Under the pieces are notes generated by a model. That model saw nothing but the letters and a program-made list of their open reading frames with translations, searched no databases and was not told the origin of the DNA. Made by a program: the position numbers and the translations under genes. Below are positions 32,353 to 63,094 of a stretch of DNA of 64,000 nt, piece by piece. Within the stretch, counting starts at the first letter, position 1; each line of letters starts with the position of its first letter. The stretch spans positions 40,784 through 104,783 of the forward strand of contig JAZUMF010000005.1 in NCBI GenBank assembly GCA_045603485.1, written 5' to 3'. The stretch is from Kiritimatiellia bacterium (lineage in GTDB: Bacteria > Verrucomicrobiota > Kiritimatiellia > RFP12 > JAAYLN01).

Positions 32353-32365
32353 TCAAGATATACCA

Positions 32366-39649: not shown

Positions 39650-39725
39650 AGGCTGTTAGCTCAGTTGGTAGAGCATGTGACTTTTAATCACAGGGTCGCG
39701 GGTCCGAATCCCGCACGGCCTACCA
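39650..39725 (+). tRNA. tRNA-Lys (anticodon TTT)
   Basis: Hand-folded cloverleaf: acceptor AGGCTGT/ACGGCCT, D-arm GCTC..GAGC, anticodon loop CTTTTAA, T-arm GCGGG-TCCGAAT-CCCGC, and an encoded CCA. Confidence 0.9.
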
Positions 39726-39735
39726 AATTTTTAAT

Positions 39736-39812
39736 CGGGGTGTAGCGCAGTCTGGTAGCGCGTCTGCCTTGGGCGCAGAAGGTCGTGGGTTCGAATCCCG
39801 CCGCCCCGACCA
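39736..39812 (+). tRNA. tRNA-Pro (anticodon TGG)
   Basis: Acceptor CGGGGTG/CGCCCCG, anticodon loop CTTGGGC, T-arm GTGGG-TTCGAAT-CCCGC, and an encoded CCA. Confidence 0.9.
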
Positions 39813-45249: not shown

Positions 45250-45265
45250 AGTGGGAGAAGGCTGT

Positions 45266-49199: not shown

Positions 49200-49212
49200 G
49201 GAGGCTCCGCTC

Positions 49213-52200
49213 ATGGATGCAGGACCGGATGCACAGCATGGTGTAAATACAGGCGTTGTGGAATCCAAATACTATGTGGATGTATGGTTGCCGGACGCTA
49301 AAGACTATCCGGGGTTGAGAGGAGCAAGTCCCAAAGTCCAAGAGGCATTGGGTCTAGGCCTTGGACTTCCAGATAAACCTACAGTTGTTCCACTTGGTGA
49401 AATAGAAATTAATCTTAAGCCTCGGTTCTATAAGCGAAACGAAAAGAATCTTGATATTGATAGTGAATCGGTCGCGGCCATTTCGTTTTCGGAAGATTTC
49501 GCGAAGCAGTGTAATTCCAATGATGTGGCCGTTCTTGCAATGATGGGTGGGGTTCTTCCTGCAGGGAAGAATTTCTTTAGAATGGGTTTTTCCGTTGAAA
49601 CTATTGCGGCCATCATTGGAGATCAGATTATTAATGATAATGACGGACGGGTGTCTCATGTTTTTTTGATTCGTGTGGATAATGATCTTGGAAATGAATT
49701 TGAACGAGCATTCTCAAGGGCGGTGAATGCCCCAAACCAAGGGCGTTCTTTGGATATACTCAAGATTGATGAGAACGGTACCCCCATTACTAAGAAGATA
49801 CAAATTACGCCGACGGACGAACAGGTGGCACGGAATACCTCAACGAATGAGGGTGTTATTAGTAAATGGTTGACTAGTTGTATTAAAAATCCGGAACACC
49901 CAAGAAATCAAGGCCTGAGATCTGTTGTCATATATGGATATTGGGAGCAATATTGGAATTTCGTAATAGAAGTATTAAGATGCAAAGCCTTTTGTAACGA
50001 CGAAGATTGGTTATATGTTGAGTCAAATTACCCGCTACATTATCCCTTTATTCTTTATGAAGCACGACATGTAGATGATTTAGATCAAGATGATTTGCAA
50101 AATTTTACTAAAGAACGCACTGATGATATTATTCCGAGATCGGTGGAAATTACGAGTTCGGGAAAAAATAATAAAAGGATAATGGGAGATAAAAAACAAG
50201 AGAAAACAGGAGGTGAAAGTCCAGAGAAACCGCCGGAGAGTGTGTTTCACCCTCAGAAGGGGAATTTGCAAAACAACAATGAAGACGAAAGGGATTTCAA
50301 TATATTTAATGAAAAGAAAATGGCTCATGCGAGTACGATAGCTCATGCGATCAAGAATAGGGATGAACCTGAAGAAGAGCATCAAAAAGAATCTAAGGAA
50401 CTCAGTCAAGAAAAGCTTATGCCGAGGGAACTTAAGCGAATTCGTTGTATAACGGGTAGACTCGTTAATGATGGTGAAAGTAGTTTCATTACATTTGCGA
50501 AGGAAACGGTTCGCCTGCTTCGTGCTGCTATTAGGGACGCTCATGAAAAAAAGGGAAAAGCGCAAGATCGGACCATCAAATCTATACGAGAATGCATATG
50601 CAAGTTTTTGGCAAATAGTAAGTTCTATGCAGCGGAACATCTAGGGTCTTTCTTTTTTCGAAAAGATGGTGAATTGTTTTTCCCTCTCTACCTCTATAAC
50701 GGAAAGCTTGAGCGACAAAGAATCGTCAGAGAGTCTTGTTGTAAGGGTGATGAATTCACAAAGGAGGCTATAGCCGATCAATTACTACAACTATCTAATT
50801 CTCTGAACAAGATAACGCGGGCTGAAATCCCCCGCAACCTTAAGGTAGGCAATTCGGATGGTGCTAAGAAGGTATTTGAGGAATTCAGTAAAATAATTGC
50901 TGACATCTCAAAGGGAATTGAGATTAAGTTTGTAAGCTATTATCCTAATACAGAGCACCTGTTCTATACATGGACAGATACGCAGGAGGGAAATGTTGAT
51001 AAGACGGAGCGATTTATCAATGTTAGCATTTTTGATGATGTTTGTAAAAAAATACAAGGTGTAATCCAGATTAACTTAAAAGATTTTGATTTGGAAGATA
51101 ACGATGCATATAGAGTATATTTGGTCTACGAGAGGACTGAAAAAGTTTTTGATGCATTAACTCTGGCGGAGTGGTGGAATACACAAAGCAATGATTGCCA
51201 GGCGACGATTATAGCTGGGAATAAAGGTTGGGAGAGATGTCTATTGCCTGTTAAGGCGGTTGTGTTTGCCAAATCAAGGATTGGGAAACAAGACGGTCAG
51301 ACGGATGAGGGTATGTCTGAAAACGAGTATAAAGATATTATAGACAATGCCAATTATGCACACTACTACCGCGACTGCGACGGCCATGAAAGCAAGTTCA
51401 AGTTTGATGAGATTTTAAGTGGTCTTTGTAAACTTCTTGGGTGTAGTGGAGACAACGGCAATTCAGAATCAGATGCCCGTTTTTTATATTATATTCCTGA
51501 ATATATTCCGGAAGACAACAAACCTGAAGGCAATAATAGTTACAAGATAGGTGGGCAAGGCGGAATCGTTATGGCGACTTGTTGCAAGTTGTCTTTGTTT
51601 GATTTGCAAATTGTTGAGAATATGGTCTCCCACATTTTTTCTAAGCTAAAAACATGTTTGGCAGAACATGATGTCCTCCTTTCAAATATAAAATCTGCCA
51701 TTGGCTCCATAATGTCTCGCAATGGTTCTCATAACATTGGTAGCCATGTATTGGCGGCACTGTCGCACAATGTGGGAACATTGCCGGATGATAGGGTGTT
51801 ATATCAGTATATTCAGCAGCGGATGGATTATATTGCAACGGTGACGACGGACTTTCCGACATGGACGCAACCGACAATGTTTGTAGCCGATATGATGAAA
51901 ACTTTTTTATCGCAGAGGCATTTATTAGATCATATTGTGGAGAGCGAAGGGTTGCATGCATTTCAGTTTCAAAATCCTAATATGACGGATGAGGAGTGGG
52001 CGGCTCAAGAAAACTGTGTAAAGATTTATGTTAGGAAGTTAGATGGTGATGGAAGTGTAAAGGACTTCATTGAATATGAAAAGGGTAAACGAGAACTTCC
52101 CATTGATTTGACTAATGATGTTGATTTAGCAATTCCCGGGGGAATAATTGGTGAACATGCGTTCTATACGATTCTTGAAAATATAATTCGGAATGCCGCG

Positions 52201-54687
52201 AAACATTCTTGGGCGAAGATTAAACAATGGCAAATAAGGCAAAACGAAATTGAGTTGCAGTATAATAATTTGGAGCTTTTCATTGATTTTGAAGAAAAGG
52301 ATGATGAGGTTAAGTATAACGTTTATGCAAAGTTGCCGATGGCTCAGGTAGTTGTGGAAAAATCTAAAGCTGACAATAAATTATGTCAGAAGGTGATTGC
52401 TTCAGAACAACTGATTAAATGGAAGGAAAAGTTTGATGATATGGGTGTAGTGAAAGCAAAGGAGGAAAATGCTTTTAAGGAGCTGCCAGATTATGAACAG
52501 GAACAGGTCAAACTACATTTGGCTAATCTCAAAGACGATCCACTTAAAAAATGGGTAGATAGATATGACAAACAAGGCGGATTGACATCTGATGAGCAGA
52601 AGGAGTTTGATTCATTGGCGATTCATCATAAGCAACAAGTTATGTTGGCGAGGCCTTTTATTGATTCGCAGGGAGCACTTCGTCGTGAGAATTGGGGTAT
52701 GGCAGAAATGAAGATATCGGCAGGATATCTCGCTGGCGAATCTATTGAGGCGATAGGGGGTATTGGAGACAAAAAAGGAAGTAATGAAATTATAACGCCA
52801 CGCATCAAATCAGAAAAGGTCAAGAGGAAATGTATAGAATCAGGGGAAAAAGTAACAGAAATTGAGGTCGAAGAACTATATTTAGGCTATGAATTTTCTA
52901 TTGCCAAACCCAAGGAAATATTGATTATAGTTGCGGAGGAGCTGAATAGGGAAGGAAAAGACGATGAATGGGGTAGTGAAAATATTCGTAATGAATTAAA
53001 AAAGCATGGGATTTTTGTTAAGACAGTTAGCGAGATAAAACAGGAGAACCGTCTTAATTACAGGTATGTAGTTCATTATAATGCACGTGAGTTGTTTGAT
53101 AAAAATTATCATGTTAAAGATGATGTTTTATTGCCGTTTAGAGTGTTAAGTGTGGCGGATATTGAGGATGAAAGGCTTAAAGATTTTATTCCGACAATAG
53201 ATATAAGTAAACTAAAAGAGTGTTTCGAGAAGGGCACTGAAGATCCGAAAAACGGAATTCAAAAACTTGTCTACGATACTTATCTTAAACATTTTTTGTC
53301 ACAACGGAGTGTAGATAATATTGGTCTTTTGGTTGCGATAAATGAAAATGAGAAATCTGGCGGAAATAGTTTGATTTCGGATGCGGATATTCTTGAATTG
53401 ATGCTTGAGCAGAATTTTGCTGTGTGCGTAGCTCAATACAAGGAATTTGCAGCTAACGAAGATAAGATTATTAAGTGTTTAGAATCGATTCGTCATAAAA
53501 GTAGTGCTAAAGATACAGTAATAAAGTTTAAGCACTTCTCAAATAAGACGATAAGGGAATTGATTGCACAACGTATGTGCGATTGGGCTGGAAAGTCTAA
53601 TGATTCATGGATTCCAATAGTTGAACATTTGCGTAAAAAGTATTTCGTATCAGATGCTGAGAGCGAAACTTCCAATGAGCTTAAGCCAAGTAATAATGAA
53701 ATATCAGTTGATTTTGCAGCAAGTGTAAATTCTCTGTCGCAAAAACATCCGATTGATGATTTTATCCGTTATGTGGAATCGATTTTTGAAAATACAAAGA
53801 AACTGTTTAAACAGTATGAAGAGCAGATTGTGACGTTGCCGGCAGGGTATAAGGTTCAATCTTCTGATGTTGGAGAAGGGGCGTCGCTTATAGACGGGAT
53901 TAAGATTATTACATCAGCAGAGAAAGAAGAACTTGAAAAAGAAAAAGATCGCCACTGGATTGGGTATCGCCGTCATGCTCATACGCTACCTGTTGATGAT
54001 TCCAAGAGACTTTATGTTGAGCCGTTAAGCGGAACTCAGACATACTTGTCACAATTGGCGAGAGTAAAAACCGATCTTGGATTGCAAATGCGTCTTATAG
54101 AAAATGGCCTTATGCGTATTCTTGTTCTTGATGAACGAGTTGCGAAGTTCCTTCGTGAGCATCAAAAGGAAGTTGGCCCGCATTATAAGTCGATGAATAT
54201 CCATGTCATTGATCACGAATGGGTTGTTGCTGGTGGAGAAACTCCTCCTGAGGGTTTTTACGGAAAGTTTACTTCTGTGCACAAAGAAGCGTTGAAATCA
54301 TTTGTAAAACCGAAAGATTCTAATGATGGTGAGAATAACCAAAATGGGAATGCCGATGTGAGCTCGAATTCGAACCTTACTATGTTTGATGATGTTGACA
54401 TCTTAATCGTTCATCAGGGGATTCTGGATAAATGGTACCCTGAATTCAAAAATCGTAAGGATATGTGGAAGTTATTGGAAGGGTTCAAGAAATTAGTGAA
54501 ATATGTTGTCGTGACTACTGGTCGAGGGACTCCGGAGAACATACCTGAAGAGACTCATCTGTTGCCGTTCGCCGTCGTTGAATCTACACTCTTTAAGAAA
54601 TATCCAGAGAAGTTGATCTTAACAGATACTATCATGAATGTCCTTCCTGTTGGGAAGAAGAACGACAACTCTGGAGGCCAAAAATGA
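49213..54687 (+). CDS. Giant (1824 aa) cytoplasmic protein with a histidine-kinase-type GHKL ATPase N-box and a degenerate receiver-like C-terminus; AT-rich
   Basis: ATG 49213 lies 10 nt after AAGGAGG, which overlaps the PBP stop. N-box-like LENIIRNAAKHS at about 52176-52210. An upstream H-rich motif SRNGSHNIGSHVLAALSH at about 51712-51765. C-terminus RILVLDERV...DILIVHQGILD...YVVVTTGRG. No Walker A and no TM helices found. The nucleotide composition is visibly AT-rich compared with the flanks. Confidence 0.6.
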   Translation: MDAGPDAQHGVNTGVVESKYYVDVWLPDAKDYPGLRGASPKVQEALGLGLGLPDKPTVVPLGEIEINLKPRFYKRNEKNLDIDSESVAAISFSEDFAKQCNSNDVAVLAMMGGVLPAGKNFFRMGFSVETIAAIIGDQIINDNDGRVSHVFLIRVDNDLGNEFERAFSRAVNAPNQGRSLDILKIDENGTPITKKIQITPTDEQVARNTSTNEGVISKWLTSCIKNPEHPRNQGLRSVVIYGYWEQYWNFVIEVLRCKAFCNDEDWLYVESNYPLHYPFILYEARHVDDLDQDDLQNFTKERTDDIIPRSVEITSSGKNNKRIMGDKKQEKTGGESPEKPPESVFHPQKGNLQNNNEDERDFNIFNEKKMAHASTIAHAIKNRDEPEEEHQKESKELSQEKLMPRELKRIRCITGRLVNDGESSFITFAKETVRLLRAAIRDAHEKKGKAQDRTIKSIRECICKFLANSKFYAAEHLGSFFFRKDGELFFPLYLYNGKLERQRIVRESCCKGDEFTKEAIADQLLQLSNSLNKITRAEIPRNLKVGNSDGAKKVFEEFSKIIADISKGIEIKFVSYYPNTEHLFYTWTDTQEGNVDKTERFINVSIFDDVCKKIQGVIQINLKDFDLEDNDAYRVYLVYERTEKVFDALTLAEWWNTQSNDCQATIIAGNKGWERCLLPVKAVVFAKSRIGKQDGQTDEGMSENEYKDIIDNANYAHYYRDCDGHESKFKFDEILSGLCKLLGCSGDNGNSESDARFLYYIPEYIPEDNKPEGNNSYKIGGQGGIVMATCCKLSLFDLQIVENMVSHIFSKLKTCLAEHDVLLSNIKSAIGSIMSRNGSHNIGSHVLAALSHNVGTLPDDRVLYQYIQQRMDYIATVTTDFPTWTQPTMFVADMMKTFLSQRHLLDHIVESEGLHAFQFQNPNMTDEEWAAQENCVKIYVRKLDGDGSVKDFIEYEKGKRELPIDLTNDVDLAIPGGIIGEHAFYTILENIIRNAAKHSWAKIKQWQIRQNEIELQYNNLELFIDFEEKDDEVKYNVYAKLPMAQVVVEKSKADNKLCQKVIASEQLIKWKEKFDDMGVVKAKEENAFKELPDYEQEQVKLHLANLKDDPLKKWVDRYDKQGGLTSDEQKEFDSLAIHHKQQVMLARPFIDSQGALRRENWGMAEMKISAGYLAGESIEAIGGIGDKKGSNEIITPRIKSEKVKRKCIESGEKVTEIEVEELYLGYEFSIAKPKEILIIVAEELNREGKDDEWGSENIRNELKKHGIFVKTVSEIKQENRLNYRYVVHYNARELFDKNYHVKDDVLLPFRVLSVADIEDERLKDFIPTIDISKLKECFEKGTEDPKNGIQKLVYDTYLKHFLSQRSVDNIGLLVAINENEKSGGNSLISDADILELMLEQNFAVCVAQYKEFAANEDKIIKCLESIRHKSSAKDTVIKFKHFSNKTIRELIAQRMCDWAGKSNDSWIPIVEHLRKKYFVSDAESETSNELKPSNNEISVDFAASVNSLSQKHPIDDFIRYVESIFENTKKLFKQYEEQIVTLPAGYKVQSSDVGEGASLIDGIKIITSAEKEELEKEKDRHWIGYRRHAHTLPVDDSKRLYVEPLSGTQTYLSQLARVKTDLGLQMRLIENGLMRILVLDERVAKFLREHQKEVGPHYKSMNIHVIDHEWVVAGGETPPEGFYGKFTSVHKEALKSFVKPKDSNDGENNQNGNADVSSNSNLTMFDDVDILIVHQGILDKWYPEFKNRKDMWKLLEGFKKLVKYVVVTTGRGTPENIPEETHLLPFAVVESTLFKKYPEKLILTDTIMNVLPVGKKNDNSGGQK

Positions 54688-55280
54688 AATATTATGTCTT
54701 TATCGCAAGAGACGAGGAAGAGTTTTCGCGCTATCCTCAAAGTGGGTTTCAGGAGCTGAAGAGGGATTTTGCAAAAACGATTCGCCATAAGGAGATGGGA
54801 GACTCATATTTATTGATTATATCAAGCGATGTGAAGCCTAAGAATGCAGAATCGGATGAAGATGTTAAGATGATGTGTTTTAAGGTTGCAGCTGCGATAA
54901 AGTTAGTAAATACAAATTACGATTATGCAGCAGGTAATGATTGTGTGCATATTTTTGTTCATGTGGGTGGAGAAGGTAGTTGTGGCTTAGGGAAAATGGA
55001 GGAAAGTCTAAAAAAGAAGGTTGGAGAAATAAAGGAAAATTGGAAAGTTTTTCTTTTAAGTTCAAGCTGGCGCTGGAGAATTGATGTCAAGCAGTCTATG
55101 ATTAGATTGCCTAATAGAGAAGGGGAACTTGATGTTCTTGTAAAGCGGTGCGAGATGGACATTGCCGCTGAGATTTTAAAAGGATTTAAGGCTCGTTATA
55201 GTACTACTGAGAAAAAAGATTGCTATGATAAAATCTGTGAAAAGCTTTCCATTGTTAAGATTGAGGAGAAGAGAAAATGA
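54684..55280 (+). CDS. Small hypothetical protein (198 aa), possibly a degenerate receiver/flavodoxin-like fold
   Basis: ATGA overlap with the upstream and downstream genes. Alternating beta-alpha pattern: YYVFIARDEE, YLLIISSD, VHIFVHVGG. No recognisable catalytic motif. Confidence 0.45.
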   Translation: MKYYVFIARDEEEFSRYPQSGFQELKRDFAKTIRHKEMGDSYLLIISSDVKPKNAESDEDVKMMCFKVAAAIKLVNTNYDYAAGNDCVHIFVHVGGEGSCGLGKMEESLKKKVGEIKENWKVFLLSSSWRWRIDVKQSMIRLPNREGELDVLVKRCEMDIAAEILKGFKARYSTTEKKDCYDKICEKLSIVKIEEKRK

Positions 55281-58200
55281 GCAATGGCAGAAAATTAAAT
55301 CTTTTTATTTTTGACTTGGCACAGCATGGAGAACTGACAAACCTAGTACTGTGGCAAGTAGCTAAGATGTTTGAGATGAGGTGTGGTATCTGTGTTGCTT
55401 CTTATTCATGGTGTGCGCCTTTAAAGAAAGAGAAATTTATTCCTCTATTTCTTTGCAATTCGTATGATGAGATTAGGGCGCATGGTTTTAATGTGCCAAG
55501 AGAATTTGTCTTTGAGGTTGGATTGAATCCTAATCCTAATTATATTGATGATCCAGATAATCAACCAGAGATGTTGTGTGAGATCTTAGGGGATAAGATA
55601 GAAGATCGGTTAAGTCTGTATAAGGAGTTAGAAATAGGTGTAAGTTTTGAGGATGTTAAAGACTGGTGTGTCGGTGCGTTTCGTAGATATTTGTTTATGG
55701 ATGATGATGTTCACGGAACATCGGGGACTTTTTCTATTTCGGAATTAATGAAATGCAACAAAGAAACAGGCTTGAATGTTGATGATAAATATTGGCAAAA
55801 ATGGTTTGGGGAATTCGGTGATGACAAAAATAAATTTAACAGAGAGATGTTGCGGGCTAGATTCGGAGTTGGCGTGAAAAATTCAAGTGACAGTACAACG
55901 CAAAATCCAAAGGAAGATGATCCGCTCAGAAATTATAAGGATGTATTGTCGGTTGTGTTTGAGGAAGAATTTAGGTGCATAAAAGCAGACGTTATTGAGA
56001 ATCCGGGCGAAAGCTATCAAAGAGTAAAAGATTTTTTTGAGAAGAAGTTTCCAAGTCAGCAAGGTCTTGCATTAAAATTTATTTCTCCATGCGGAAAGAT
56101 ACGTGTACTTGTTGTAGATGATAATGCTACAGCCGAAGTTGAAAGTCTTAAAAGTAAAGAATCGTTGTCTAATATTTTTGATTTTGCTCCGTTGGATTTG
56201 AAGAAGCGAGATGATGAATCTTCGAATCAGTTTATAAAAAGATCCATAGGCGAGATAAAAAATAAATCTAAGGAATGTGTTGATGTAATTTTATTAGATC
56301 TAAGCTTAGGCGAGGCGACAGGTTCTGATTTGACTGGCTATCATCTGATTAAGAGATTTAAGCAATGGATGCCGACGGCCTATATCATTATTTATTCTGA
56401 ACATGAGGATATGGGGCATATTGTTCGTGCGTTCAGAGAGGGTGCCGATTGGTTTTTGAAAAAGAGCGAAGCTCAAGAAAAACTTGCGCGTCATTTTATT
56501 TCGTTGATGGCGAATCGCAAATGGAGAAAAGAATTCGGCGTCATCAGACCGAAATATGTTCTTGATATAAAAGGCAAGGATGAAAATTTTATCGCCAAAT
56601 TCAATGTAAAAGAGGTATGGCAATATTTGACAATAAAAAGTCTGGAATTATTGCCGGGACATTATATCAAGATAAATAAGATGGGGGGCGGTATCAGTTC
56701 GGCTGTCACATTCCGAGCGCAGAAAGGCATTACAAGAGATACTGAAGATAATCAGGCGCCCGTAATCATCAAGATAGATTCTGTTTTTAATACGAGGATG
56801 GAATATGAGCGTTATTTCCGCTTCATTCGACCGTATATTGCCAATGAGTCGGGGCGGATAGAGAAGCGTGAAATAGTTCTCAATAGGGATAGCGCCGCGA
56901 TTGTTTATACATTTACAGGGCGGCGAGATGCTGCACATGAACTTAACACCTTGGACGAACTGCTGCGCCGCGATATGTTATCGCGTGAAACTTGCGATTA
57001 TGAAAAATATCGCAAGATGTTTAATGCGCTGTTTGATGAGATCACAGCGCGTCTGCACAGGGTGACTCCAGTCGCAGAATTCAGGGATTTAAAGACAGAT
57101 CCGGAAGAGTTGTCGGAGTTTTCTGATTATCCCAATCGCACATTTGGAGAATTGGAGAGTGATTCTATATCATCCTCCGATCAAGGTCATAAATCTTGGT
57201 TTTTCTCGAATTTTACATATAGAATGCCGATAGAGAGTGTTGCTGAAAAGTTTATAATAAGTGAAGGCTCAAGCAATCCGAATGAGGTATATGAAGTTTA
57301 TGGTATCCAGAAGGATGACTTAGGTAAGAATTCCGCTAAATACCCTTATACTTATGTTATTGAATGTCAGCGATATAAGATTAAAACTGAAAATGATAAT
57401 AAAGAGTTGCATCAAAAGGTGTTGCTGAAAGGCGATTTAGCGTCATATTACGCCCGTTTTAGGACACATCTTTGGCCGGGAATGTTGCTGTCGATAAAAC
57501 TGGGGGAAGGTCAAACATTAAATGAGAACGAACTTATGTCTTGGTGCTTTTGTTTCTGCGCCAATAAGAATTTATATCAAATCCGCGCTGAAAAGACAGA
57601 AGATGGCTCTAAACAAGAGGGATGTTTCCGGATATCTAAAAAGCTTTATAATAAGATGGCCGGATGGTTTAAGGATAAAGAAAACCGATACTTAATAACA
57701 GTTCGTGACGCGCTGAAAAAACTTGTCGATGAGGAGCCGCACAGATTTGTGTGTCCGGTTGGTATTGTGCACGGCGATTTAAATCTTAAGAACATTATGA
57801 TTGAATCCCGGGTCAATCCACCGAAAGAAATTCAAGCAGACATAACGAAGGTTTTGTCTGATGTGTGGCTTATAGACTTTGCTCGGACGCGGCGAGATGT
57901 CGTAGCACATGATTTCAATGTCGCTTTTACATCAGTACTTCCGTTGCTCTTTCAGCCGGATCTCGTTGGGACGCATGAGAAGGGTAAACCGTTTGAGCAG
58001 AATGATGAGCAGAAGAAATACGTCGAAGAATTAGATGAAAAACTTGAACCGTATTTGCGCCATGTTCTCTTTGACAAGTATGATACTTTGTCGGATTTGT
58101 TTGCGGAAGATCAGCGACTTGTTTTCATGTACAAGATATTAAGAAGAATCCGTAAAGCGGCACTTGCGACGGGGATGTCGGAGGATATGTATCTACTGAC

Positions 58201-58354
58201 GACAGCACTGACATGTTTGTATTCGTTTAAACTGTATTTAAAACAAGGAATGCCGGAAGCCGCAACAGCACTTGTAATGGCGGGATTGCTTTGCGTGGAG
58301 AAGTTGAATCCGCCAGATGACTGTTTCGAAGCATCTAATCAGAAAACATTATGA
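55277..58354 (+). CDS. Receiver (REC) domain fused to a eukaryotic-like Ser/Thr protein-kinase-like domain (1025 aa)
   Basis: REC: VLVVDDN (56101-56127), VILLDLSL, IIIYSEHED, DWFLKKS. Kinase: G-loop KMGGGISSAV, beta3 VIIKI, catalytic loop HGDLNLKNIMI (57769-57803), and DFG-like LIDFARTR. Confidence 0.7.
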   Translation: MSNGRKLNLFIFDLAQHGELTNLVLWQVAKMFEMRCGICVASYSWCAPLKKEKFIPLFLCNSYDEIRAHGFNVPREFVFEVGLNPNPNYIDDPDNQPEMLCEILGDKIEDRLSLYKELEIGVSFEDVKDWCVGAFRRYLFMDDDVHGTSGTFSISELMKCNKETGLNVDDKYWQKWFGEFGDDKNKFNREMLRARFGVGVKNSSDSTTQNPKEDDPLRNYKDVLSVVFEEEFRCIKADVIENPGESYQRVKDFFEKKFPSQQGLALKFISPCGKIRVLVVDDNATAEVESLKSKESLSNIFDFAPLDLKKRDDESSNQFIKRSIGEIKNKSKECVDVILLDLSLGEATGSDLTGYHLIKRFKQWMPTAYIIIYSEHEDMGHIVRAFREGADWFLKKSEAQEKLARHFISLMANRKWRKEFGVIRPKYVLDIKGKDENFIAKFNVKEVWQYLTIKSLELLPGHYIKINKMGGGISSAVTFRAQKGITRDTEDNQAPVIIKIDSVFNTRMEYERYFRFIRPYIANESGRIEKREIVLNRDSAAIVYTFTGRRDAAHELNTLDELLRRDMLSRETCDYEKYRKMFNALFDEITARLHRVTPVAEFRDLKTDPEELSEFSDYPNRTFGELESDSISSSDQGHKSWFFSNFTYRMPIESVAEKFIISEGSSNPNEVYEVYGIQKDDLGKNSAKYPYTYVIECQRYKIKTENDNKELHQKVLLKGDLASYYARFRTHLWPGMLLSIKLGEGQTLNENELMSWCFCFCANKNLYQIRAEKTEDGSKQEGCFRISKKLYNKMAGWFKDKENRYLITVRDALKKLVDEEPHRFVCPVGIVHGDLNLKNIMIESRVNPPKEIQADITKVLSDVWLIDFARTRRDVVAHDFNVAFTSVLPLLFQPDLVGTHEKGKPFEQNDEQKKYVEELDEKLEPYLRHVLFDKYDTLSDLFAEDQRLVFMYKILRRIRKAALATGMSEDMYLLTTALTCLYSFKLYLKQGMPEAATALVMAGLLCVEKLNPPDDCFEASNQKTL

Positions 58355-59031
58355 CACCTAAACGCATAATCCTTGTTCGCCACGGTGAATCGGAGGCGAA
58401 TGTCGATCCGACGGTGTATGCCCGCGTGCCGGATTGGCGGATTGCACTTACAGCAACTGGTGTTGAGCAGGCTCGGGATGCTGGGCGGAAGATTGCGGGA
58501 TTGATTGGCGGCGAGTCGTTCGGGGTGTTCAGCTCGCCGTATGTGCGAACGGAACAGACCAAGGACGCGATGCTGGAGGGAATGGGGCGCGAGCCGGTGT
58601 TTGACTACCAAGATCCAACTTTGCGCGAACAGGAATACGGCAACATGCCGCCGACAGATGAGAACAATGCGAACCGTGAGTTCCGCAAGAAGTTCGGCTA
58701 CTTTTTCTACCGTTTCCCGAACGGTGAATCGTGCGCCGATGTCTCGGATCGTATCACGCTCTTCCTTGACTCCCTCTATCGCCGGTTTGAGCGCGACACG
58801 TGTCCCGAGAACATCATCATCGTTTCCCACGGCACGGCTATCAAGTGCTTCCTTGCTAGATGGTATCATTGGTCGATTGCAAAGTTTGATACCATTCCCC
58901 AGTTGCCAAACTGCCATGTTAGTGTGATGAGACGAATTGATGGGGATGTGCAACGCGCTTCTTCGCAGTTTGAATTGCATGAACCATTTGAAACAGTATG
59001 CTGTTTCTCAATGAAAGGTAAAGAACAATGA
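58351..59031 (+). CDS. Histidine phosphatase superfamily (PGM/SixA branch) protein
   Basis: N-terminal RIILVRHGESEANV (RHG catalytic motif) and a downstream SHG. ATGA overlap with the kinase gene. GC-rich, like the host. Confidence 0.75.
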   Translation: MTPKRIILVRHGESEANVDPTVYARVPDWRIALTATGVEQARDAGRKIAGLIGGESFGVFSSPYVRTEQTKDAMLEGMGREPVFDYQDPTLREQEYGNMPPTDENNANREFRKKFGYFFYRFPNGESCADVSDRITLFLDSLYRRFERDTCPENIIIVSHGTAIKCFLARWYHWSIAKFDTIPQLPNCHVSVMRRIDGDVQRASSQFELHEPFETVCCFSMKGKEQ

Positions 59032-60935
59032 CAATTGTTCAAGATCAGTTTGACGCATCGTCCTTCCAAGTTCCGCCGAAAGTCGGGAAGTCTGGAATGT
59101 TGGGCGACCTGTCGGGTGCCCTGCAGGTGTTAAACCGTGTTGCGTTTAGCATTGGATGGATACTGTTGGCCATAGCGGCTCCGCTTGCATGGGGCTTCTT
59201 GCCGTTTGGTTATGAGAAACTTAAGGAGAGCGCCGAAATCAGCGCGGTGCCATCGCTGACAGTGTGTATGCGAATGACTTTCGCTGCTTTATTCTCGCTT
59301 GCTGTGCTTGCCGTCTGGGTGGCTATAGGCAAGGCTGTGTATCGTGGGTGTGACGGAGACGTGCCTTGGTTTAAGAAGATGTTACGAGAAACGCGGGAAG
59401 CCTTAAAGCGTCATTGGCGGCCACTCCTTGCGTTGCCGGTTCTTTATGTTGTCGCGCGCATATTGGAAATGGAATTGTTGTTGAACGCATCGCGGATTGG
59501 GGTGGAAGGACCATTCGGCGGCGCATTGGAGCAATACGGATATTTTCTGGGATTGCTTTTGATAATACTTTTGCCTACGGCCAGATTGCGTAATTTTTCC
59601 ATCGTGGATATGCTTGTGTGGACAGTTACTGTGGTTATGGTTTTCGCTAGCGCAGTTCTGAATCTGACTGCTCGCGTCCATGTTGCCCACTGGAATTCTG
59701 TTTACATAATGACCGTCATGGCGTTTGCCGTGGCTGTGATAGGGCTTTTCTCTGCACTTGTAAAGACGGCAAGTGGCTTTGCGGCGGAGTTCTCGGAAGA
59801 TGTCAGCAAACATCGTTTTGCTCCAGCCATATTTGCCAGCATGGTCGTGAACATGGTAATGGCTGCAGGGGCGGCTGTGTTGTCTATTCTGTATCTGATT
59901 GTCTATTTTGCTGCAAAGGGCTGGAAGTGGATGTCGTATGGCGATAAGATCAAATATTCGATGAGCGATGCATTGCCCGCATATTTCTCAGATGGAAAAT
60001 GGTTCTGGTTTTTGATTGTAATTGTTGTTGTGGGATCGTTGGTTGCGCCGATTTGCCAGTTGGCGGGTGTAGCGCTACACGATGCGGCAATAAGGAATCG
60101 CAAATTATCGAAATATGGCATATCTGGCAGGGACTGGCTGATAGTGTGTGGCGGATTTGAGCCTATGTTTGTGGTCCTGATCGGCATTTGTTCTGGTGCA
60201 ACATTCATAAGCAATTTCTCGATAGCGCTCTCGTTTGGCCTTGTGCTTGCGATTGGCTTGCTCAGGGTCGTGAAGGTGTGGAGTGCGAAGAATACAGTCC
60301 TCAGGAATGGTATCTTTACCCATATTCGTGGCAGTTCAAGAGGCCCTGATTCGACCATGTCTGAGGATGATTTGCTTCTGCGCGCGGAAAAACTAGCTCT
60401 CCTGAAATTCTATGACAAGCGCCGCGAATTTAGGGGAACAAGGTTGGGTGTGTGGCCCAAACCCGCTTTGCTGCGTGATCTTATCGACAGGCATGATGCG
60501 GTTAAGGATTTCTTATCTGCTGCTACAACGCAGGAAGTTCTATGTGGGAGAGAGCCTTTTTATACGCCGCTTATAGGCGGTGAAGTCTTCTTCACGCAGG
60601 ACGATCCTTTCACTCATGATGTTCTCTCTGCCCAATTCGCTTGGCTCAAACGGCGGCATCCGGATGTTGATGTGACGTCCTTCAGCTATTTGCTAAAGCG
60701 TTTTTGCAGTGAATCCGCTGGATGGAATGGCAAGTTGGGGTTGAAGAGCCTGGCTTGTGCTGGCGAACCGAATGCAACGCCATATATAATCATCCCGAGA
60801 AACCTGAAGGCGGCGACGGGCTTTTGTAGTGACTGGAACAAACTCCTTGCAGTCCTTCATGGAATCGTTGACAGAGAGGAAATACCTCAATATGTCAACG
60901 CCTTGATGTTGGATGCAAAGAACATTGATGACTGA
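59028..60935 (+). CDS. Polytopic membrane protein (about 8 TM) with a 300-aa C-terminal cytoplasmic domain of unknown function
   Basis: Hydrophobic helices throughout the first 330 aa. ATGA overlap with the phosphatase gene. Confidence 0.5.
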   Translation: MTIVQDQFDASSFQVPPKVGKSGMLGDLSGALQVLNRVAFSIGWILLAIAAPLAWGFLPFGYEKLKESAEISAVPSLTVCMRMTFAALFSLAVLAVWVAIGKAVYRGCDGDVPWFKKMLRETREALKRHWRPLLALPVLYVVARILEMELLLNASRIGVEGPFGGALEQYGYFLGLLLIILLPTARLRNFSIVDMLVWTVTVVMVFASAVLNLTARVHVAHWNSVYIMTVMAFAVAVIGLFSALVKTASGFAAEFSEDVSKHRFAPAIFASMVVNMVMAAGAAVLSILYLIVYFAAKGWKWMSYGDKIKYSMSDALPAYFSDGKWFWFLIVIVVVGSLVAPICQLAGVALHDAAIRNRKLSKYGISGRDWLIVCGGFEPMFVVLIGICSGATFISNFSIALSFGLVLAIGLLRVVKVWSAKNTVLRNGIFTHIRGSSRGPDSTMSEDDLLLRAEKLALLKFYDKRREFRGTRLGVWPKPALLRDLIDRHDAVKDFLSAATTQEVLCGREPFYTPLIGGEVFFTQDDPFTHDVLSAQFAWLKRRHPDVDVTSFSYLLKRFCSESAGWNGKLGLKSLACAGEPNATPYIIIPRNLKAATGFCSDWNKLLAVLHGIVDREEIPQYVNALMLDAKNIDD

Positions 60936-60954
60936 CGGCGCAAGGAGTGTTATC

Positions 60955-62436
60955 ATGCGATTCTCATGGATTAAGATTTTTTTCACGCCGTTGAGGGGGA
61001 TTAAGAACCTCTTTGGGCTGCTTACGACGTGCCTGTTTTGTCAGCAGACGCTTACGCTGCTTTTTCTGATGTTTTCCATCTGGACTCTAGGTGCTGCATA
61101 TGCCTTCTTTTATCTTCACGATCCGAATTGGGGTCAATGGAGTTTTGTGCATCTTTTTGATTTGACAGAGACACGTCGAACGCTTAATGAGTCATCTGGA
61201 GTCGGGAAAGCGGTCGCCGTTCTGCTATATGGCGTGACATGGCTTATTGGTGGCGGCATCCTGTTGGGCGTTATTGTGGACAGAAGTGCGCGTTTCATGT
61301 CAACGGTAAGAGATGGCCATGTCCGTTATCGTCGTGCATTGCGCGATCATTTTGTGATATTGGGATGGGAGCCAAATGTAGTATCCCTTTTGCGCAACCT
61401 TTCTGGAGGTGGTCGACTGCTATCTTTTTTTTCGTTGCGCGCTTTGTTCCGGCCGAGGATTGTCATCTTGTCAGAATGCCCTGCGGTGGAAATTCACCAG
61501 CAGATAGCAGAGGCATTTGGCCGCAGTTTCTTTAAGGTACTTCCTTTTGGGCTGATTGTGTACAATGGGGCTTATGATGCGAAAGACGAGTTCAAGATGC
61601 TGGTTTTGCGCTATGCGCGCAAGATATATGTGACAGGAGAGGAACCAGAGGCCTCGCATGATTCAAGAGTGTTGCTGTTCCTTGCAAGCCTTGAGGCTTT
61701 TTTGGGGAAATATAAACCGAGACAGCGTATTAACTGCCATGTTCGCATTGCTTCTTATTCGCTTTTCAGGCTTTTGGTGTTGTCGATAAACAAGGGATCG
61801 CCCGTTGGCAATCATAAGTACGAGTATCTGACCGTCCGCTTTTTCAACTTCTACGAGAATTGGGCCAAACGACTATTCTCGGAAAACCCTGCGAATGGTC
61901 GTGCATATCCATCAGTGGTGTTTAGACCTGACGATGGTCAGAGCCGTGTTCGTGTTGTTGTCGTAGGGTTTGGCAAAATGGGGCAGGCGTTGATTGTGGA
62001 GATCCTTCGTTCCCATCCGCAAAGGAAAGGACGAATGATTGACATTGTGGTTGTTGATCCCGATGTAAATGTTCTCCGAAAGCAGTTCATGATGTCGCAT
62101 AGTGACATAGCGACGGGCGAGTACATGAAGCACGCGACTCTTAGATTTGCCAAGGCGATGCGAGTGGAGGATGCCGCATTTCGCAACATGATCAAGCGTT
62201 TCGAGGCGGAAGGAGACCAAATTACTGTCATGTTGACATACAACAGCCCTGACGATGTAGTCGTGAGGGCGGTTGCGCTTGCCTCCAAATATAAATCTGC
62301 CAATATCTTTGCTCGGCTAAACATCGCCGTACCAGATGTGGACAAGTGCAGAGATGTTGTTGCAGAAAGCTACAATTTGAACCGGCTTTACCTGTATGGA
62401 TTTAAGGATGGTGCTGGGTTTGGGAAGGAGATTTAG
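60955..62436 (+). CDS. Membrane-anchored protein with two TrkA-N/RCK-like Rossmann domains
   Basis: Two N-terminal TM helices, then HFVILGWEPNVV and later VRVVVVGFGKMGQALIVEIL...IDIVVVDPD, both glycine-rich beta-alpha-beta NAD(P)-binding-like motifs. The ATG at 60955 follows AGGAG; the ORF track start at 60913 overlaps the previous gene. Confidence 0.5.
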   Translation: MRFSWIKIFFTPLRGIKNLFGLLTTCLFCQQTLTLLFLMFSIWTLGAAYAFFYLHDPNWGQWSFVHLFDLTETRRTLNESSGVGKAVAVLLYGVTWLIGGGILLGVIVDRSARFMSTVRDGHVRYRRALRDHFVILGWEPNVVSLLRNLSGGGRLLSFFSLRALFRPRIVILSECPAVEIHQQIAEAFGRSFFKVLPFGLIVYNGAYDAKDEFKMLVLRYARKIYVTGEEPEASHDSRVLLFLASLEAFLGKYKPRQRINCHVRIASYSLFRLLVLSINKGSPVGNHKYEYLTVRFFNFYENWAKRLFSENPANGRAYPSVVFRPDDGQSRVRVVVVGFGKMGQALIVEILRSHPQRKGRMIDIVVVDPDVNVLRKQFMMSHSDIATGEYMKHATLRFAKAMRVEDAAFRNMIKRFEAEGDQITVMLTYNSPDDVVVRAVALASKYKSANIFARLNIAVPDVDKCRDVVAESYNLNRLYLYGFKDGAGFGKEI

Positions 62437-62437
62437 G

Positions 62438-63094
62438 ATGCAAAAGCTTGAAGAGCGTGTTGAAAAAATACGAAATCCTATGACATCCCGACTAAGGGAG
62501 TTTGCCGATGCCATGGGGCGGGAACTTGCGGAAGCGTGTAGCATTCCTGGCGCACATTATATCCTTGGCGGGGCGTTAGGGTATAACGCGTCTTTGGTGG
62601 GAAACTATGATATTGACTTGCGATTGTTGATTCCCAACGCGGGGAAGAGCCATGAGGAAGTGCGGCGGCAGATTGACGCGGTGAAGGACTTGCTGGCGGC
62701 GCGGGCGAAGGACGATCCAACATTCAAGATAAAGTTCATCGATGAGGGCGGAACGAACTACATCTGGCACACGAAACAGATCGTGAAGGTTCCGGGCATC
62801 CCTGGCAATCCAGATGTTGAGTTGACGTGGAACATCCAAGCAGAAAGTACGTACAAGAGTATCGCCGAGATGGCGGCGCGTCTGCCGAAGAGGGTAATCG
62901 ACCGCTATGTTGTCGAGAAGTGGAACGCGCAGCAGGCAGGCAAGGAGGCTTACAAAGCCCTCAAGGGCGAATGGAAGGGGATGATCAACCGTTTGATCGA
63001 TAAAGGCGCTCGAAAGATGGATGATGAGTCCTTGCGTGAGTTGCTGGATTCAGTAGCCAGTCAATATTCAAAGTTTTTGAAAGAAAGGAAATGA
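62438..63094 (+). CDS. Minimal nucleotidyltransferase (Pol-beta superfamily) with helical C-terminal domain
   Basis: LGGALGYNASLVGNYDIDLRLLIP fits the G[GS]x(9-13)DxD nucleotidyltransferase signature (62564-62633). ATG 62438 lies 2 nt after the previous stop, with an RBS (GGAAGGAG). Confidence 0.55.
   Translation: MQKLEERVEKIRNPMTSRLREFADAMGRELAEACSIPGAHYILGGALGYNASLVGNYDIDLRLLIPNAGKSHEEVRRQIDAVKDLLAARAKDDPTFKIKFIDEGGTNYIWHTKQIVKVPGIPGNPDVELTWNIQAESTYKSIAEMAARLPKRVIDRYVVEKWNAQQAGKEAYKALKGEWKGMINRLIDKGARKMDDESLRELLDSVASQYSKFLKERK

What the first reader, a model, noticed from the sequence alone, without database searches (positions are those of the whole stretch)
58351..59031. RHG histidine phosphatase coupled to the kinase cassette (possible phosphorelay reset enzyme)
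A PGM/SixA-branch histidine phosphatase starts on the stop codon of the REC-kinase gene. SixA-type enzymes are known to dephosphorylate phospho-His on HPt domains. A phosphatase placed here fits a module that needs an off-switch, acting on the phospho-His/Asp relay or on the Ser/Thr kinase substrates.
Basis: partly seen in the sequence, partly recalled or inferred. Interest (0 to 1): 0.55.

Follow-up and report, generated by a model that had tools for sequence, protein, structure and literature searches.

The report
Histidine phosphatase partnered with defence-type kinase

Summary
ORF 58351-59031 encodes a 226-aa branch-1 histidine phosphatase (Pfam E 2.6e-30) with RHG, Arg66, Glu93 and His160 intact. 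Its ATG overlaps the stop of the upstream gene (ATGA).

- The upstream gene is REC + TCAD9, an APH/EcKL-like (small-molecule-type) kinase, not a Ser/Thr kinase.
- The phosphatase is not SixA-like and not a dPGM. Its nearest solved relatives are sugar-bisphosphatases (Shb17, TIGAR).
- In all 10 independent places where a phosphatase at least 60% identical was found, a TCAD9 kinase gene ends within 14 nt of its start, although those kinases share only 33-39% identity.

Three distant REC-TCAD9 relatives carry a SMODS-associated NUDIX domain fused where the phosphatase gene sits here. Slightly more distant phosphatase relatives lie in TIR/STAND islands.

Best reading (about 0.45): a product-level off-switch for a Detocs-like two-component conflict system, acting on a small, possibly nucleotide-like phosphoester. 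Nothing has been tested biochemically.

The parts
58351..59031 (+). Histidine phosphatase (HP), 226 aa, His_Phos_1 branch 1. Catalytic R10-H11-G12, R66, E93 and H160 are all present.
   Evidence: Purifying selection: dN/dS 0.12-0.16 in four of the five comparisons with unsaturated dS below 1.3, 0.26 in the fifth (L091). GC3 is 0.59 against 0.36-0.38 for the three genes upstream.
55277..58354 (+). REC-TCAD9 kinase, 1025 aa. It has a variable N-terminal region. Its receiver is canonical (DD281-282, the acceptor Asp in ILLDLSL, S374, K396). Its APH/EcKL-like kinase domain has a G-loop MGGGISSAVTF, K499, HGDLNxxN (H832, D834, N839) and IDF (D867).
49186..54687 (+). Large protein, 1833 aa. The N-terminal ~800 aa are hypervariable. 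Residues ~815-1260 form a divergent histidine-kinase DHp+CA core. The C-terminal receiver-like module is invariant.
54684..55280 (+). Small ORF, 198 aa, of unknown fold. It is hypervariable, and in L089 and L173 no separate small gene lies between the histidine-kinase and REC-TCAD9 genes.
   Evidence: weak motif match YVFIARD..RY to the L001 counterpart. In L089 and L173 the REC-TCAD9 gene directly follows the large gene; L089's N-terminal extension shows no significant similarity to the 198-aa ORF, so a fusion is not shown.
59028..60935 (+). Multi-pass membrane protein, 635 aa, in the variable module downstream of HP.
   Evidence: hydrophobic sequence. 32-33% identity by tblastn (36-37% in the codon alignments) to the L001 and L089 counterparts. 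No family hit.
60913..62436 (+). Membrane protein, 507 aa, with two Rossmann-like segments and a weak TrkA_N hint.
   Evidence: TrkA_N E 0.017, below cutoff. 60% identity to L001 and L089.
62438..63094 (+). Minimal Pol-beta-fold nucleotidyltransferase, 218 aa from Met15 of ORF 62396..63094. Motifs GG[AS]-x11-DIDL and FIDE.
   Evidence: P0124 is 100% identical and starts at this Met. Alignment A4. AF2 pLDDT 94.3. Foldseek top hits are OAS1 (E 6e-7), Cid1, GLD-2 and CdnC.
48078..49199 (+). Peripla_BP_6 lipoprotein. It lies directly upstream of the cassette at all seven places where that flank could be read (the window, six fetched loci and the GCA_016648615.1 contig). Whether it belongs to the cassette is uncertain.
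   Evidence: 95.5% identical to L089 but only 20-28% to the other loci.

Best explanation
The gene encodes a catalytically intact branch-1 histidine phosphatase. It is the fixed, translationally coupled partner of a REC-TCAD9 kinase.

Both genes sit in a hypervariable, mosaic cassette built like a defensive two-component system:
- a divergent histidine kinase with a rapidly changing N-terminal region (presumed sensor);
- a receiver-regulated APH/EcKL-like kinase;
- the phosphatase;
- variable membrane proteins;
- a small OAS-like nucleotidyltransferase.

Proposed mechanism (inferred, not shown). On a trigger, the histidine kinase phosphorylates the receiver. That switches on the TCAD9 kinase, which phosphorylates a small, probably nucleotide-like molecule. 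The phosphatase hydrolyses that phosphomonoester. This would keep the output below threshold in unstimulated cells and reset it afterwards. It would be an anti-autoimmunity device at the level of the product, comparable in purpose to the DtcB buffer of Detocs.

Shown: gene, fold, catalytic residues, coupling, co-occurrence, mosaicism, and the folds of the partner proteins. Inferred: the substrate, the direction of regulation and the defensive role.
For: 1. Identity. Pfam His_Phos_1 E 2.6e-30. Catalytic residues are invariant in the family.
2. Coupling. ATGA overlap in the window. In the eight fetched loci read at sequence level, HP starts 0-14 nt inside or right after the TCAD9 gene's stop. 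The same holds in GCA_016648615.1 and L173 (3-nt gap).
3. Co-occurrence across deep divergence. HP is 60-86% identical between these places, while the adjacent kinases are only 33-39% identical with saturated dS. An HMM of the kinase finds it in none of the other 160 HP-family loci held when that search was run (all 60% identity or less).
4. The pair persists outside the full cassette. L171 has REC-TCAD9 (561 aa) followed by HP, inside a TIR/STING island and without the large histidine kinase.
5. Both enzymes look like small-molecule enzymes. The kinase region hits EcKL, APH, Kdo and choline-kinase models. APH matches 28 of 53 relatives and Pkinase 1 of 53. The HP profile's best solved relatives are Shb17, TIGAR, a phosphoserine phosphatase, PhoE and PFKFB.
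6. Positional analogue. Three distant REC-TCAD9 proteins (P0396, P0414, P0409) carry a C-terminal SMODS-associated NUDIX domain exactly where HP is encoded here.
7. Two-component frame. The large protein has a histidine-kinase fold, and the receiver has all phospho-acceptor residues.
8. Conflict-system signature. The window and L089 share a 95.5% identical flanking gene (dS 0.17). Across the cassette itself, aa identity to L089 is only 32-43% by tblastn for the large protein, the kinase and the 635-aa membrane protein. The N-termini are variable, some with methyltransferase domains. A Schlafen-HK-wHTH gene lies 2.5 kb upstream.
Against: - No biochemical or genetic test exists, and the kinase's substrate is unknown.
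- HP relatives at 54-63% identity occur without any TCAD9 gene, next to TIR, nSTAND1, RyR and ADP-ribosylglycohydrolase genes. They also occur in an ICE and in a housekeeping context. The clade is therefore not tied exclusively to this kinase.
- L001 and L089 share near-identical downstream genes (HP 91%, membrane proteins 92-96%) but unrelated kinase alleles (36%). A recombination breakpoint thus lies at the kinase|HP junction, and HP does not co-evolve with a given kinase.
- No kinase-phosphatase fusion was found.
- No cassette gene matches PADLOC, so a defence role is by analogy only.
- A constitutive phosphatase opposite a kinase could instead make a futile cycle.
Confidence: 0.45

Rival explanations
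1. Phosphorelay reset. HP removes phosphate from the phospho-His of the histidine kinase, or from the phospho-Asp of the receiver, as SixA does for ArcB and NPr.
For: - A real histidine-kinase fold and a canonical receiver lie just upstream.
- The H-box region SRNGSHNIGSHVLAALSHNVGT is invariant across alleles that are otherwise 30-50% identical in the same alignment. A constant partner could explain that.
- HP is likewise constant.
- Detocs needs a device against stray phosphorylation.
Against: - The SixA model scores 16 bits against a cutoff of 74.5.
- No SixA chain appears among the 60 rows shown of the 65 PDB hits to the family profile.
- HP is 226 aa, with a dPGM/PhoE-type stretch between the Glu93 and His160 motifs that the 154-position SixA model lacks (the cap reading is my inference).
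- In L171 the acceptor Asp is replaced by Gly and no large histidine kinase was detected, yet HP remains coupled.
- Relatives in TIR/STAND operons have no two-component genes.
Confidence: 0.12
2. Protein phosphatase. HP reverses Ser/Thr/Tyr (or other) phosphorylation of proteins by the TCAD9 kinase, as PGAM5 or Sts-1 do within the same superfamily. This would protect host proteins or reset a phosphorylated effector.
For: - Kinase-phosphatase pairs are a known theme in conflict systems, for example the kinase + PP2C + vWA triads in Kaur et al. 2020.
- The coupling and co-occurrence are tight.
- The kinase has a hypervariable insert between its lobes that could recognise proteins.
- OspG_kinase and RIO1 models hit 3 relatives each.
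Against: - The kinase's affinities are mainly with small-molecule kinases: APH in 28 of 53 relatives, EcKL in 12, Pkinase in 1.
- HP's nearest solved relatives are metabolite phosphatases, and neither PGAM5 nor Sts appears among the 60 rows shown of the 65 PDB hits at E <= 0.01.
- A NUDIX domain, which acts on nucleotides rather than proteins, occupies the equivalent position in distant relatives.
Confidence: 0.15
3. Nucleotide-signal processing independent of the kinase. HP trims or destroys a phosphorylated nucleotide made by the cassette's OAS-like nucleotidyltransferase. In the relatives, the source would be neighbouring TIR enzymes. Examples would be a 5' or 2'/3' phosphate on a linear oligonucleotide or on an ADP-ribose derivative.
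For: - HP and the nucleotidyltransferase are the two conserved, GC3-rich anchors of the cassette.
- The nucleotidyltransferase has an intact GG[AS]..DxD..D/E site and an OAS/CD-NTase-like fold.
- HP relatives sit in TIR, ADP-ribosylglycohydrolase and STING islands.
- Sa_NUDIX fusions tie the kinase family to nucleotide signalling.
Against: - The nucleotidyltransferase family is confined to the full cassette. It is absent from L171, where HP still follows the kinase.
- HP's start is locked to the kinase gene, not to the nucleotidyltransferase gene, which lies 3.4 kb downstream.
Confidence: 0.15
4. Ordinary metabolic enzyme. HP would be a phosphoglycerate mutase or a general sugar-phosphate phosphatase that merely neighbours an inserted island.
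For: - The broader family (40-47% identity) is common in Streptomyces, Chloroflexi and Bacteroidota, in housekeeping-looking contexts.
- HP has a genome-like or higher GC content, while the three genes upstream are AT-rich.
Against: - dPGM equivalogs fall far below their cutoffs, and SHGTA replaces the HGN motif (that HGN marks dPGMs is from my own knowledge).
- Between the window and L089, HP has dS 0.70 while the flanking gene has dS 0.17. HP therefore belongs to the exchanged cassette and not to the backbone.
- The tight or overlapping junction with a kinase gene is kept in 10 places, even though the kinases are only 33-39% identical.
- No glycolytic neighbours were found.
Confidence: 0.03

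Closest known systems
Detocs (DtcA histidine kinase, DtcB buffer receiver, DtcC receiver-effector; Rousset et al., bioRxiv 10.1101/2023.01.24.525353)
   Same: - An operon built like a two-component system, in which the response regulator's DNA-binding domain is replaced by an enzyme.
- The kinase's N-terminal region is variable (inferred here to be the sensor).
- There is an extra component whose proposed job is to stop stray activation.
- Here a histidine-kinase fold and a canonical receiver fused to an enzyme are present in the same order.
   Different: - The effector is an APH-like TCAD9 kinase, not the PNP ATP nucleosidase.
- No standalone receiver was detected (the 198-aa ORF has no family match).
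- The candidate safety device is a histidine phosphatase.
- Extra membrane-protein and nucleotidyltransferase genes follow.
- There are no PADLOC matches.
- Anti-phage activity is untested.
SixA phosphohistidine phosphatase (ArcB HPt / NPr)
   Same: The same superfamily branch and the same RHG nucleophile chemistry. The idea of a histidine-phosphatase-fold enzyme damping a phosphorelay is also shared.
   Different: - The sequence model is not met (16 bits against 74.5).
- HP is about 70 residues longer than the 154-position SixA model.
- No HPt-domain or NPr family match was found in the cassette proteins.
- The coupling survives loss of the receiver's acceptor Asp.
Kinase plus phosphohydrolase modules in Aravind-type NTP-dependent conflict systems (APH kinase + HAD operons; kinase + PP2C + vWA triads; Kaur et al. 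2020, PMC7159879)
   Same: [quoted passage not shown]
   Different: - No vWA, MoxR or VMAP gene is in this cassette.
- The phosphohydrolase is His_Phos_1, not HAD or PP2C.
- That paper mentions neither histidine phosphatases nor phosphoglycerate mutase.
REC-TCAD9-Sa_NUDIX fusion proteins (P0396, P0414, P0409)
   Same: The same receiver + TCAD9 core, with a phosphoester or pyrophosphate hydrolase immediately C-terminal to the kinase. That is the position HP occupies here as a translationally coupled gene.
   Different: The hydrolase is a NUDIX domain, fused rather than separate. These proteins are distant relatives (E 1e-13 to 1e-28), and their genomic contexts were not examined.
Shb17 / TIGAR / PhoE-type metabolite phosphatases
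   Same: These are the nearest solved relatives by profile search (E 3.7e-14 to 3e-9). They share the same catalytic core and a substrate-capping insert.
   Different: Similarity to them is low: only marginal scores of 39-56 bits. The family has its own invariant motifs: DPxLREQ[ED][YW]G, FFYRFPxGESCADVxDR and PNCH. Those enzymes are not known to be gene-coupled to kinases of this type.

Membership tests
Histidine phosphatase superfamily, branch 1 (His_Phos_1) | Sequence match above the curated Pfam threshold | tested here: met
   106 bits against a cutoff of 21.7, E 2.6e-30, covering profile positions 1-184 of 194.
Histidine phosphatase superfamily, branch 1 (His_Phos_1) | RHG nucleophile motif, second Arg, acid Glu and second His | tested here: met
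   R10-H11-G12, R66, E93 and H160 are invariant in 24 family members and align to S. pombe PGM and Shb17.
Histidine phosphatase superfamily, branch 1 (His_Phos_1) | Phosphomonoesterase activity through a phospho-His intermediate | not testable with these tools
   Needs an enzyme assay.
SixA phosphohistidine phosphatase | Match to the SixA equivalog model (TIGR00249) | tested here: not met
   16.1 bits against a cutoff of 74.5, with no stretch passing on its own.
SixA phosphohistidine phosphatase | Compact protein of about 155-160 aa without a large substrate cap | tested here: not met
   HP is 226 aa, with a conserved stretch between the Glu93 and His160 motifs that aligns to dPGM/Shb17-type proteins. 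The SixA model is only 154 positions long.
SixA phosphohistidine phosphatase | An HPt or NPr phospho-His substrate encoded nearby or known | tested here: inconclusive
   No HPt or NPr family match in the cassette proteins. A histidine kinase DHp His is present but was not tested as a substrate.
Cofactor-dependent phosphoglycerate mutase (dPGM) | Match to dPGM equivalog models | tested here: not met
   The best dPGM models score 17-50 bits against cutoffs of 225-421.
Cofactor-dependent phosphoglycerate mutase (dPGM) | HGN motif at the second catalytic His, and paired Arg in the cap (family knowledge) | tested here: not met
   The sequence reads VSHGTAIK. Only one Arg (R121) aligns with the RR of S. 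pombe PGM.
Cofactor-dependent phosphoglycerate mutase (dPGM) | Conserved linkage to glycolytic genes in relatives | tested here: not met
   The neighbours are kinase, TIR and STAND genes or unrelated housekeeping genes.
Detocs-type defensive two-component system | Sensor histidine kinase gene | tested here: met
   [not shown]
Detocs-type defensive two-component system | Response regulator with a receiver fused to a non-DNA-binding effector | tested here: met
   Response_reg + TCAD9 kinase with the acceptor residues present. The effector type differs from PNP.
Detocs-type defensive two-component system | Standalone receiver 'buffer' protein (DtcB) | tested here: not met
   The 198-aa ORF matches no receiver model. 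HP occupies the extra-gene role instead.
Detocs-type defensive two-component system | Homology to DtcA/B/C profiles, and anti-phage activity | tested here: inconclusive
   No PADLOC hit for any cassette protein, but I could not confirm that this PADLOC version holds Detocs models. Activity is not testable here.
vWA-MoxR-VMAP ternary system (source of the name TCAD9) | vWA, MoxR ATPase and VMAP genes in the neighbourhood | tested here: not met
   None among the proteins encoded between 41 and 64 kb, nor in the related loci's gene tables.
   There is no Pkinase hit in the window protein, even at E <= 10. Among 53 relatives, APH matches 28, EcKL 12 and Pkinase 1.

The most novel reading that the evidence does not exclude
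The kinase and the phosphatase together are the weapon. Once the receiver is phosphorylated, the TCAD9 kinase and the co-translated phosphatase would cycle one abundant small molecule between its phosphorylated and free forms. That futile cycle would burn ATP and starve an invader, reaching by other means the ATP depletion that Detocs achieves with its nucleosidase. The evidence neither supports nor excludes this beyond the strict pairing of the two enzymes.
Probability: 0.07. Interest if true: 0.8.

Novelty: new variant of a known kind. Interest (0 to 1): 0.55.

Why it matters
If the reading is right, this is an undescribed multi-gene conflict system, seen here mainly in metagenome contigs whose few named relatives are Kiritimatiellae MAGs. 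A two-component relay would drive a small-molecule kinase rather than a nuclease or NADase, and a histidine-phosphatase-fold enzyme would serve as the built-in eraser.

It would extend the Detocs principle to a new effector chemistry. It would also give the first functional context for Pfam TCAD9 kinases outside vWA-MoxR systems, and for a distinct His_Phos_1 subfamily that also turns up in TIR/STAND islands.

The mosaic structure, with conserved phosphatase and nucleotidyltransferase anchors between freely exchanged sensor and membrane modules, is a clear natural example of module shuffling at an immune-like locus.

If the reading is wrong, the phosphatase is still a well-defined member of an uncharacterised subfamily with unusually informative gene neighbourhoods.

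Tried and rejected
- Sequence searches against PDB chains with single proteins and with profiles found nothing beyond receiver domains. This covers the large protein, the nucleotidyltransferase and the kinase. Only structure prediction plus fold search resolved the large protein and the nucleotidyltransferase.
- Lenient Pfam scans of segments of the large protein, the 198-aa ORF and the membrane proteins gave no usable hit.
- PADLOC gave no hit for any cassette protein.
- NCBIfam gave no equivalog for HP.
- Literature searches for a histidine phosphatase or phosphoglycerate-mutase-like enzyme in TIR, STAND or anti-phage contexts found nothing relevant. TCAD9 appears in one figure legend only.
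- Cluster look-up gave no organism names for HP homologues. The Kiritimatiellae assignment rests on names attached to three homologues of the other cassette proteins.
- Neighbour clustering around the 40-47% identity clade was dominated by spurious high-GC ORFs and core-genome synteny in Streptomyces, and gave no functional lead.
- The promoter and terminator scan was uninformative: counts were near shuffled expectation.
- A search for kinase-phosphatase fusion proteins was negative.
- I considered that the GC step at 58351 marks a simple island insertion next to a backbone phosphatase, and rejected it. HP's dS to L089 (0.70) is four times that of the flanking gene (0.17), and the junction is conserved in 10 places.
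- From memory, HP resembles plant AT74-type proteins. I could not test this and it is not used.
Full report
**1. Observation**

The ORF 58351..59031 (+) exists as described.
- Its ATG overlaps the TGA of the preceding 1025-aa ORF (…acatt ATG A cacc…). Its own stop overlaps the start of the next ORF at 59028.
- Pfam His_Phos_1 matches at E 2.6e-30 (106 bits, cutoff 21.7) over residues 6-198.
- A 24-sequence family alignment shows R10, H11, G12, R66, E93 and H160 invariant. It also shows family-specific motifs: DPxLREQ[ED][YW]G, FFYRFPxGESCADVxDR and PNCH.

**2. What kind of histidine phosphatase it is**

- No NCBIfam equivalog reaches its cutoff. The best is a putative phosphomutase subfamily (58 bits against 204). 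dPGM models score 17-50 bits against 225-421, and SixA scores 16 against 74.5.
- Against PDB sequences, the single protein finds S. pombe PGM, Shb17/YKR043C, TIGAR, PFKFB, PhoE and CobC at E 5e-9 to 1e-3.
- The family profile ranks Shb17 (3.7e-14), TIGAR (5e-14), a Plasmodium PGM-like protein, phosphoserine phosphatase PspA, PhoE and PFKFB highest. No SixA, Sts or PGAM5 chain appears among the 60 rows shown of the 65 hits at E <= 0.01.
- It is therefore a PGM-branch enzyme of its own subfamily, nearest to metabolite phosphatases. It is neither SixA-like nor a mutase; VSHGTA replaces the HGN motif.

**3. The neighbour**

- The 1025-aa upstream protein has a receiver domain with the acidic pair, acceptor Asp, Ser and Lys all present.
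- It also has a Pfam TCAD9 domain with a Gly-rich loop, a conserved Lys, HGDLNxxN and IDF. All of these are invariant across seven alleles that are only 34-39% identical.
- The catalytic-loop region hits EcKL, APH, Kdo/WaaP and choline-kinase models near or above their cutoffs, and never Pkinase.
- Among 53 representatives of the family, TCAD9 matches 53, Response_reg 36, APH 28 (best 1.2e-9), EcKL 12 and Pkinase 1.
- The family is rare. A search of 1.84 billion representative proteins found 91 clusters.
- Kaur et al. [quoted passage not shown] 'Ser/Thr kinase' is therefore not supported.

**4. Co-occurrence**

- HP has 656 detectable homologues.
- I examined every place where a homologue at least 60% identical had upstream sequence available. 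These were L001, L002/L003, L089, L090, L091, L169, L171, L173 and a contig of GCA_016648615.1. Each carries a TCAD9 gene directly upstream.
- Counting the window itself, that makes 10 independent places.
- The junctions are ATGA (four fetched loci read directly, of which L002 and L003 are one place, plus the window and the same 4-nt overlap by coordinates in GCA_016648615.1), TAATG, TGAATG, 11- and 14-nt overlaps, and one 3-nt gap.
- An HMM built from these kinases finds no match in any of the other 160 HP-family loci held when that search was run, all at 60% identity or less.

**5. The cassette and its evolution**

The conserved order is: Peripla_BP_6 lipoprotein, a 1500-1865-aa protein, a small ORF (not called separately in L089 and L173, where the kinase gene directly follows the large gene), REC-TCAD9, HP, one or two membrane proteins, and a protein of about 215 aa.

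Identity between the window and L089 (tblastn; the codon alignments give 51%, 39% and 36% for the large protein, the kinase and the membrane protein):

| Gene | aa identity | dS |
|---|---|---|
| Flanking lipoprotein | 95.5% | 0.17 |
| Large protein | 43%, mosaic (one 1.5-kb block at 87% nt) | not uniform |
| REC-TCAD9 kinase | 36% | saturated |
| HP | 83% | 0.70 |
| Membrane protein (635 aa) | 32% | saturated |
| 507-aa protein | 60% | saturated |
| Last gene (nucleotidyltransferase) | 77% | 1.32 |

- L001 and L089 share nearly identical downstream genes (HP 91%, membrane proteins 92-96%). Their large proteins and kinases are only 34-36% identical, which puts a recombination breakpoint at the kinase|HP junction.
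- HP is under purifying selection (dN/dS 0.12-0.16 in four of five unsaturated comparisons, 0.26 against L091).
- HP and the last gene have higher GC3 (0.55-0.83) than the variable genes around them in all five loci measured.
- HP therefore belongs to the exchanged cassette. It is one of its two conserved anchors.

**6. The partner proteins**

- *Large protein.* It has an almost invariant core: SRNGSHNIGSHVLAALSHNVGT…, ENIIRNAAKH, RRENWGxAEMKISAGYL, and a C-terminal RILxxDER…HQGIxDK…TTGRGTPxNIP module. This follows a hypervariable N-terminal ~800 aa. Its 424 homologues have varied N-termini, some carrying SAM- or N6/N4-methyltransferase domains.
- *Last gene.* Its true start is Met15 at 62438, because P0124 is 100% identical from that residue. 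It models at pLDDT 94 and matches OAS1, Cid1, GLD-2 and CdnC. GG[AS]-x11-DxD and FIDE are conserved. It is a minimal Pol-beta-fold nucleotidyltransferase.
- *Organism.* Named homologues of these proteins come from Kiritimatiellae MAGs. That the samples are rumen metagenomes is my inference from the sample codes alone.

**7. Beyond the cassette**

- L171 (HP 63% identical) has a shorter REC-TCAD9 gene followed by HP, inside an island with TIR-STING and TIR_2 genes. Its receiver has Gly in place of the acceptor Asp.
- HP relatives at 54-63% identity lie without TCAD9 in three kinds of place:
  - operons of the type RyR, TIR/SIR2, nSTAND1, HP, TIR-FGE-sulfatase (L005/L009 and L174);
  - a TIR_2 plus ADP-ribosylglycohydrolase island with two HP paralogues (L170);
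  - an ICE with CYTH and Imm5 genes.
- One relative at 56% identity and the large clade at 40-47% identity sit in housekeeping contexts.
- Three distant REC-TCAD9 proteins carry a C-terminal SMODS-associated NUDIX domain at the position that HP occupies here as a separate gene.

**8. Interpretation**

- The closest validated system is Detocs. It has a histidine kinase, a buffer receiver that prevents autoimmunity, and a receiver-effector.
- Here the effector is a small-molecule-type kinase. The extra component is a phosphatase of the metabolite-phosphatase type.
- The simplest model is that HP erases the kinase's product, setting a threshold and resetting the system.
- For a small, possibly nucleotide-like substrate, the arguments are the kinase's and HP's family affinities, the NUDIX displacement, the nucleotidyltransferase, and the TIR/ARH contexts of HP relatives.
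- Against a phosphorelay reset, the arguments are the failed SixA membership and L171.
- Against the whole scheme: there is no experiment, HP relatives occur without the kinase, and there is no allele-specific co-evolution.
- I put the product-level off-switch at about 0.45. The rivals are a protein phosphatase (0.15), processing of a nucleotide signal independently of the kinase (0.15), a phosphorelay reset (0.12) and a plain metabolic enzyme (0.03).

**9. Novelty**

- The gene itself is a new member of a known superfamily.
- The cassette appears undescribed: a histidine kinase, a REC-TCAD9 kinase, His_Phos_1, membrane proteins and an OAS-like nucleotidyltransferase.
- It has no PADLOC hit, and the searches I ran found no literature on it.
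- It is best classed as a new variant of the defensive two-component and kinase-phosphatase themes.

Noticed in passing
window 62438-63094 (+), within ORF 62396-63094: The conserved last gene of the cassette is a minimal nucleotidyltransferase of 218 aa. AF2 gives pLDDT 94, and the Foldseek top hits are OAS1, Cid1, GLD-2 and CdnC. It has an intact GG[AS]-x11-DxD + FIDE site. The family has only 98 clusters, and the one named member is from a Kiritimatiellae MAG.
   Followed up: yes
[not shown]
   Followed up: partly
window 49-63 kb compared with L089, L001, L002, L169: The locus is mosaic. The window and L089 share a 94% identical flank, but the cassette alleles are 32-83% identical. Recombination breakpoints lie at the kinase|HP junction and inside the large gene (an 87% identical block at 50441-51972). 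HP and the nucleotidyltransferase have higher GC3 than the variable genes around them in all five loci measured.
   Followed up: yes
P0396, P0414, P0409 (representative proteins; no locus): Distant REC-TCAD9 relatives carry a C-terminal SMODS-associated NUDIX domain (E down to 1.7e-32). This ties the rare kinase family (91 clusters in 1.84 billion proteins) to nucleotide-signalling conflict systems. Their gene neighbourhoods were not examined.
   Followed up: partly
window 48078-49199 (+), with L001, L002, L089, L169, L173 and the GCA_016648615.1 contig: A Peripla_BP_6 lipoprotein (signal peptide with Cys) lies directly upstream of the cassette at all seven places where that flank could be read. 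These proteins are only 20-28% identical to one another, except the window against L089 (95.5%). It is not clear whether this marks a conserved insertion hot spot or a variable cassette component.
   Followed up: no
window 45092-46702 (+): This gene combines Schlafen/AlbA_2, HATPase_c_4 and a winged helix. A 2026 NAR paper (PMC12839542) reports this architecture as widely linked to BREX-type defence loci. It gives weak PADLOC hits to Aga_SIR2-PNTD models and lies 2.5 kb upstream of the cassette.
   Followed up: partly
L171 8316-10633: A short REC-TCAD9 (561 aa) whose receiver has Gly in place of the phospho-acceptor Asp still overlaps the HP start by one base. It sits in an island with TIR-STING, TIR_2-Fe-hydrogenase-like, TIR_2, Peptidase_M24 and FGE-sulfatase genes.
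   Followed up: partly
L170 5637-6317 and 10001-10654; L005 and L174 around the HP gene: Two paralogous copies of this HP clade (84% identical to each other) lie in one island with three TIR_2 and two ADP-ribosylglycohydrolase genes. In L005 and L174 the HP sits after an nSTAND1 NTPase. In L174 it overlaps a downstream TIR-FGE-sulfatase gene by 4 nt, while in L005 a TIR gene lies just upstream. L005 also has a second, unrelated His_Phos_1 gene.
   Followed up: partly
window 59028-60935 and 60913-62436 (+): Two membrane proteins follow HP. The first is multi-pass with a soluble C-terminal part. The second has two Rossmann-like segments and a sub-threshold TrkA_N hit (E 0.017). In other loci they are replaced by unrelated or distantly related proteins. 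They may be effectors.
   Followed up: no
window 39650-39809 (+); 24360-26153 (+); 32324-33568 (+): There is a pair of tRNA genes. An ABC-type ATPase scores 186 bits to the PADLOC model mad3, and a GTPase gives weak hits to the LeoA and LeoBC models. The last two may simply be housekeeping ABC-F and GTPase genes.
   Followed up: no
window 54684-55280 (+): The 198-aa ORF between the histidine kinase and the REC-kinase has no family match. It shares only short motifs (YVFIARD..RY; hFhHhGG) with the 322-aa counterpart in L001. In L089 and L173 there is no separate small gene at this position; L089's kinase has an N-terminal extension with no significant similarity to it.
   Followed up: partly
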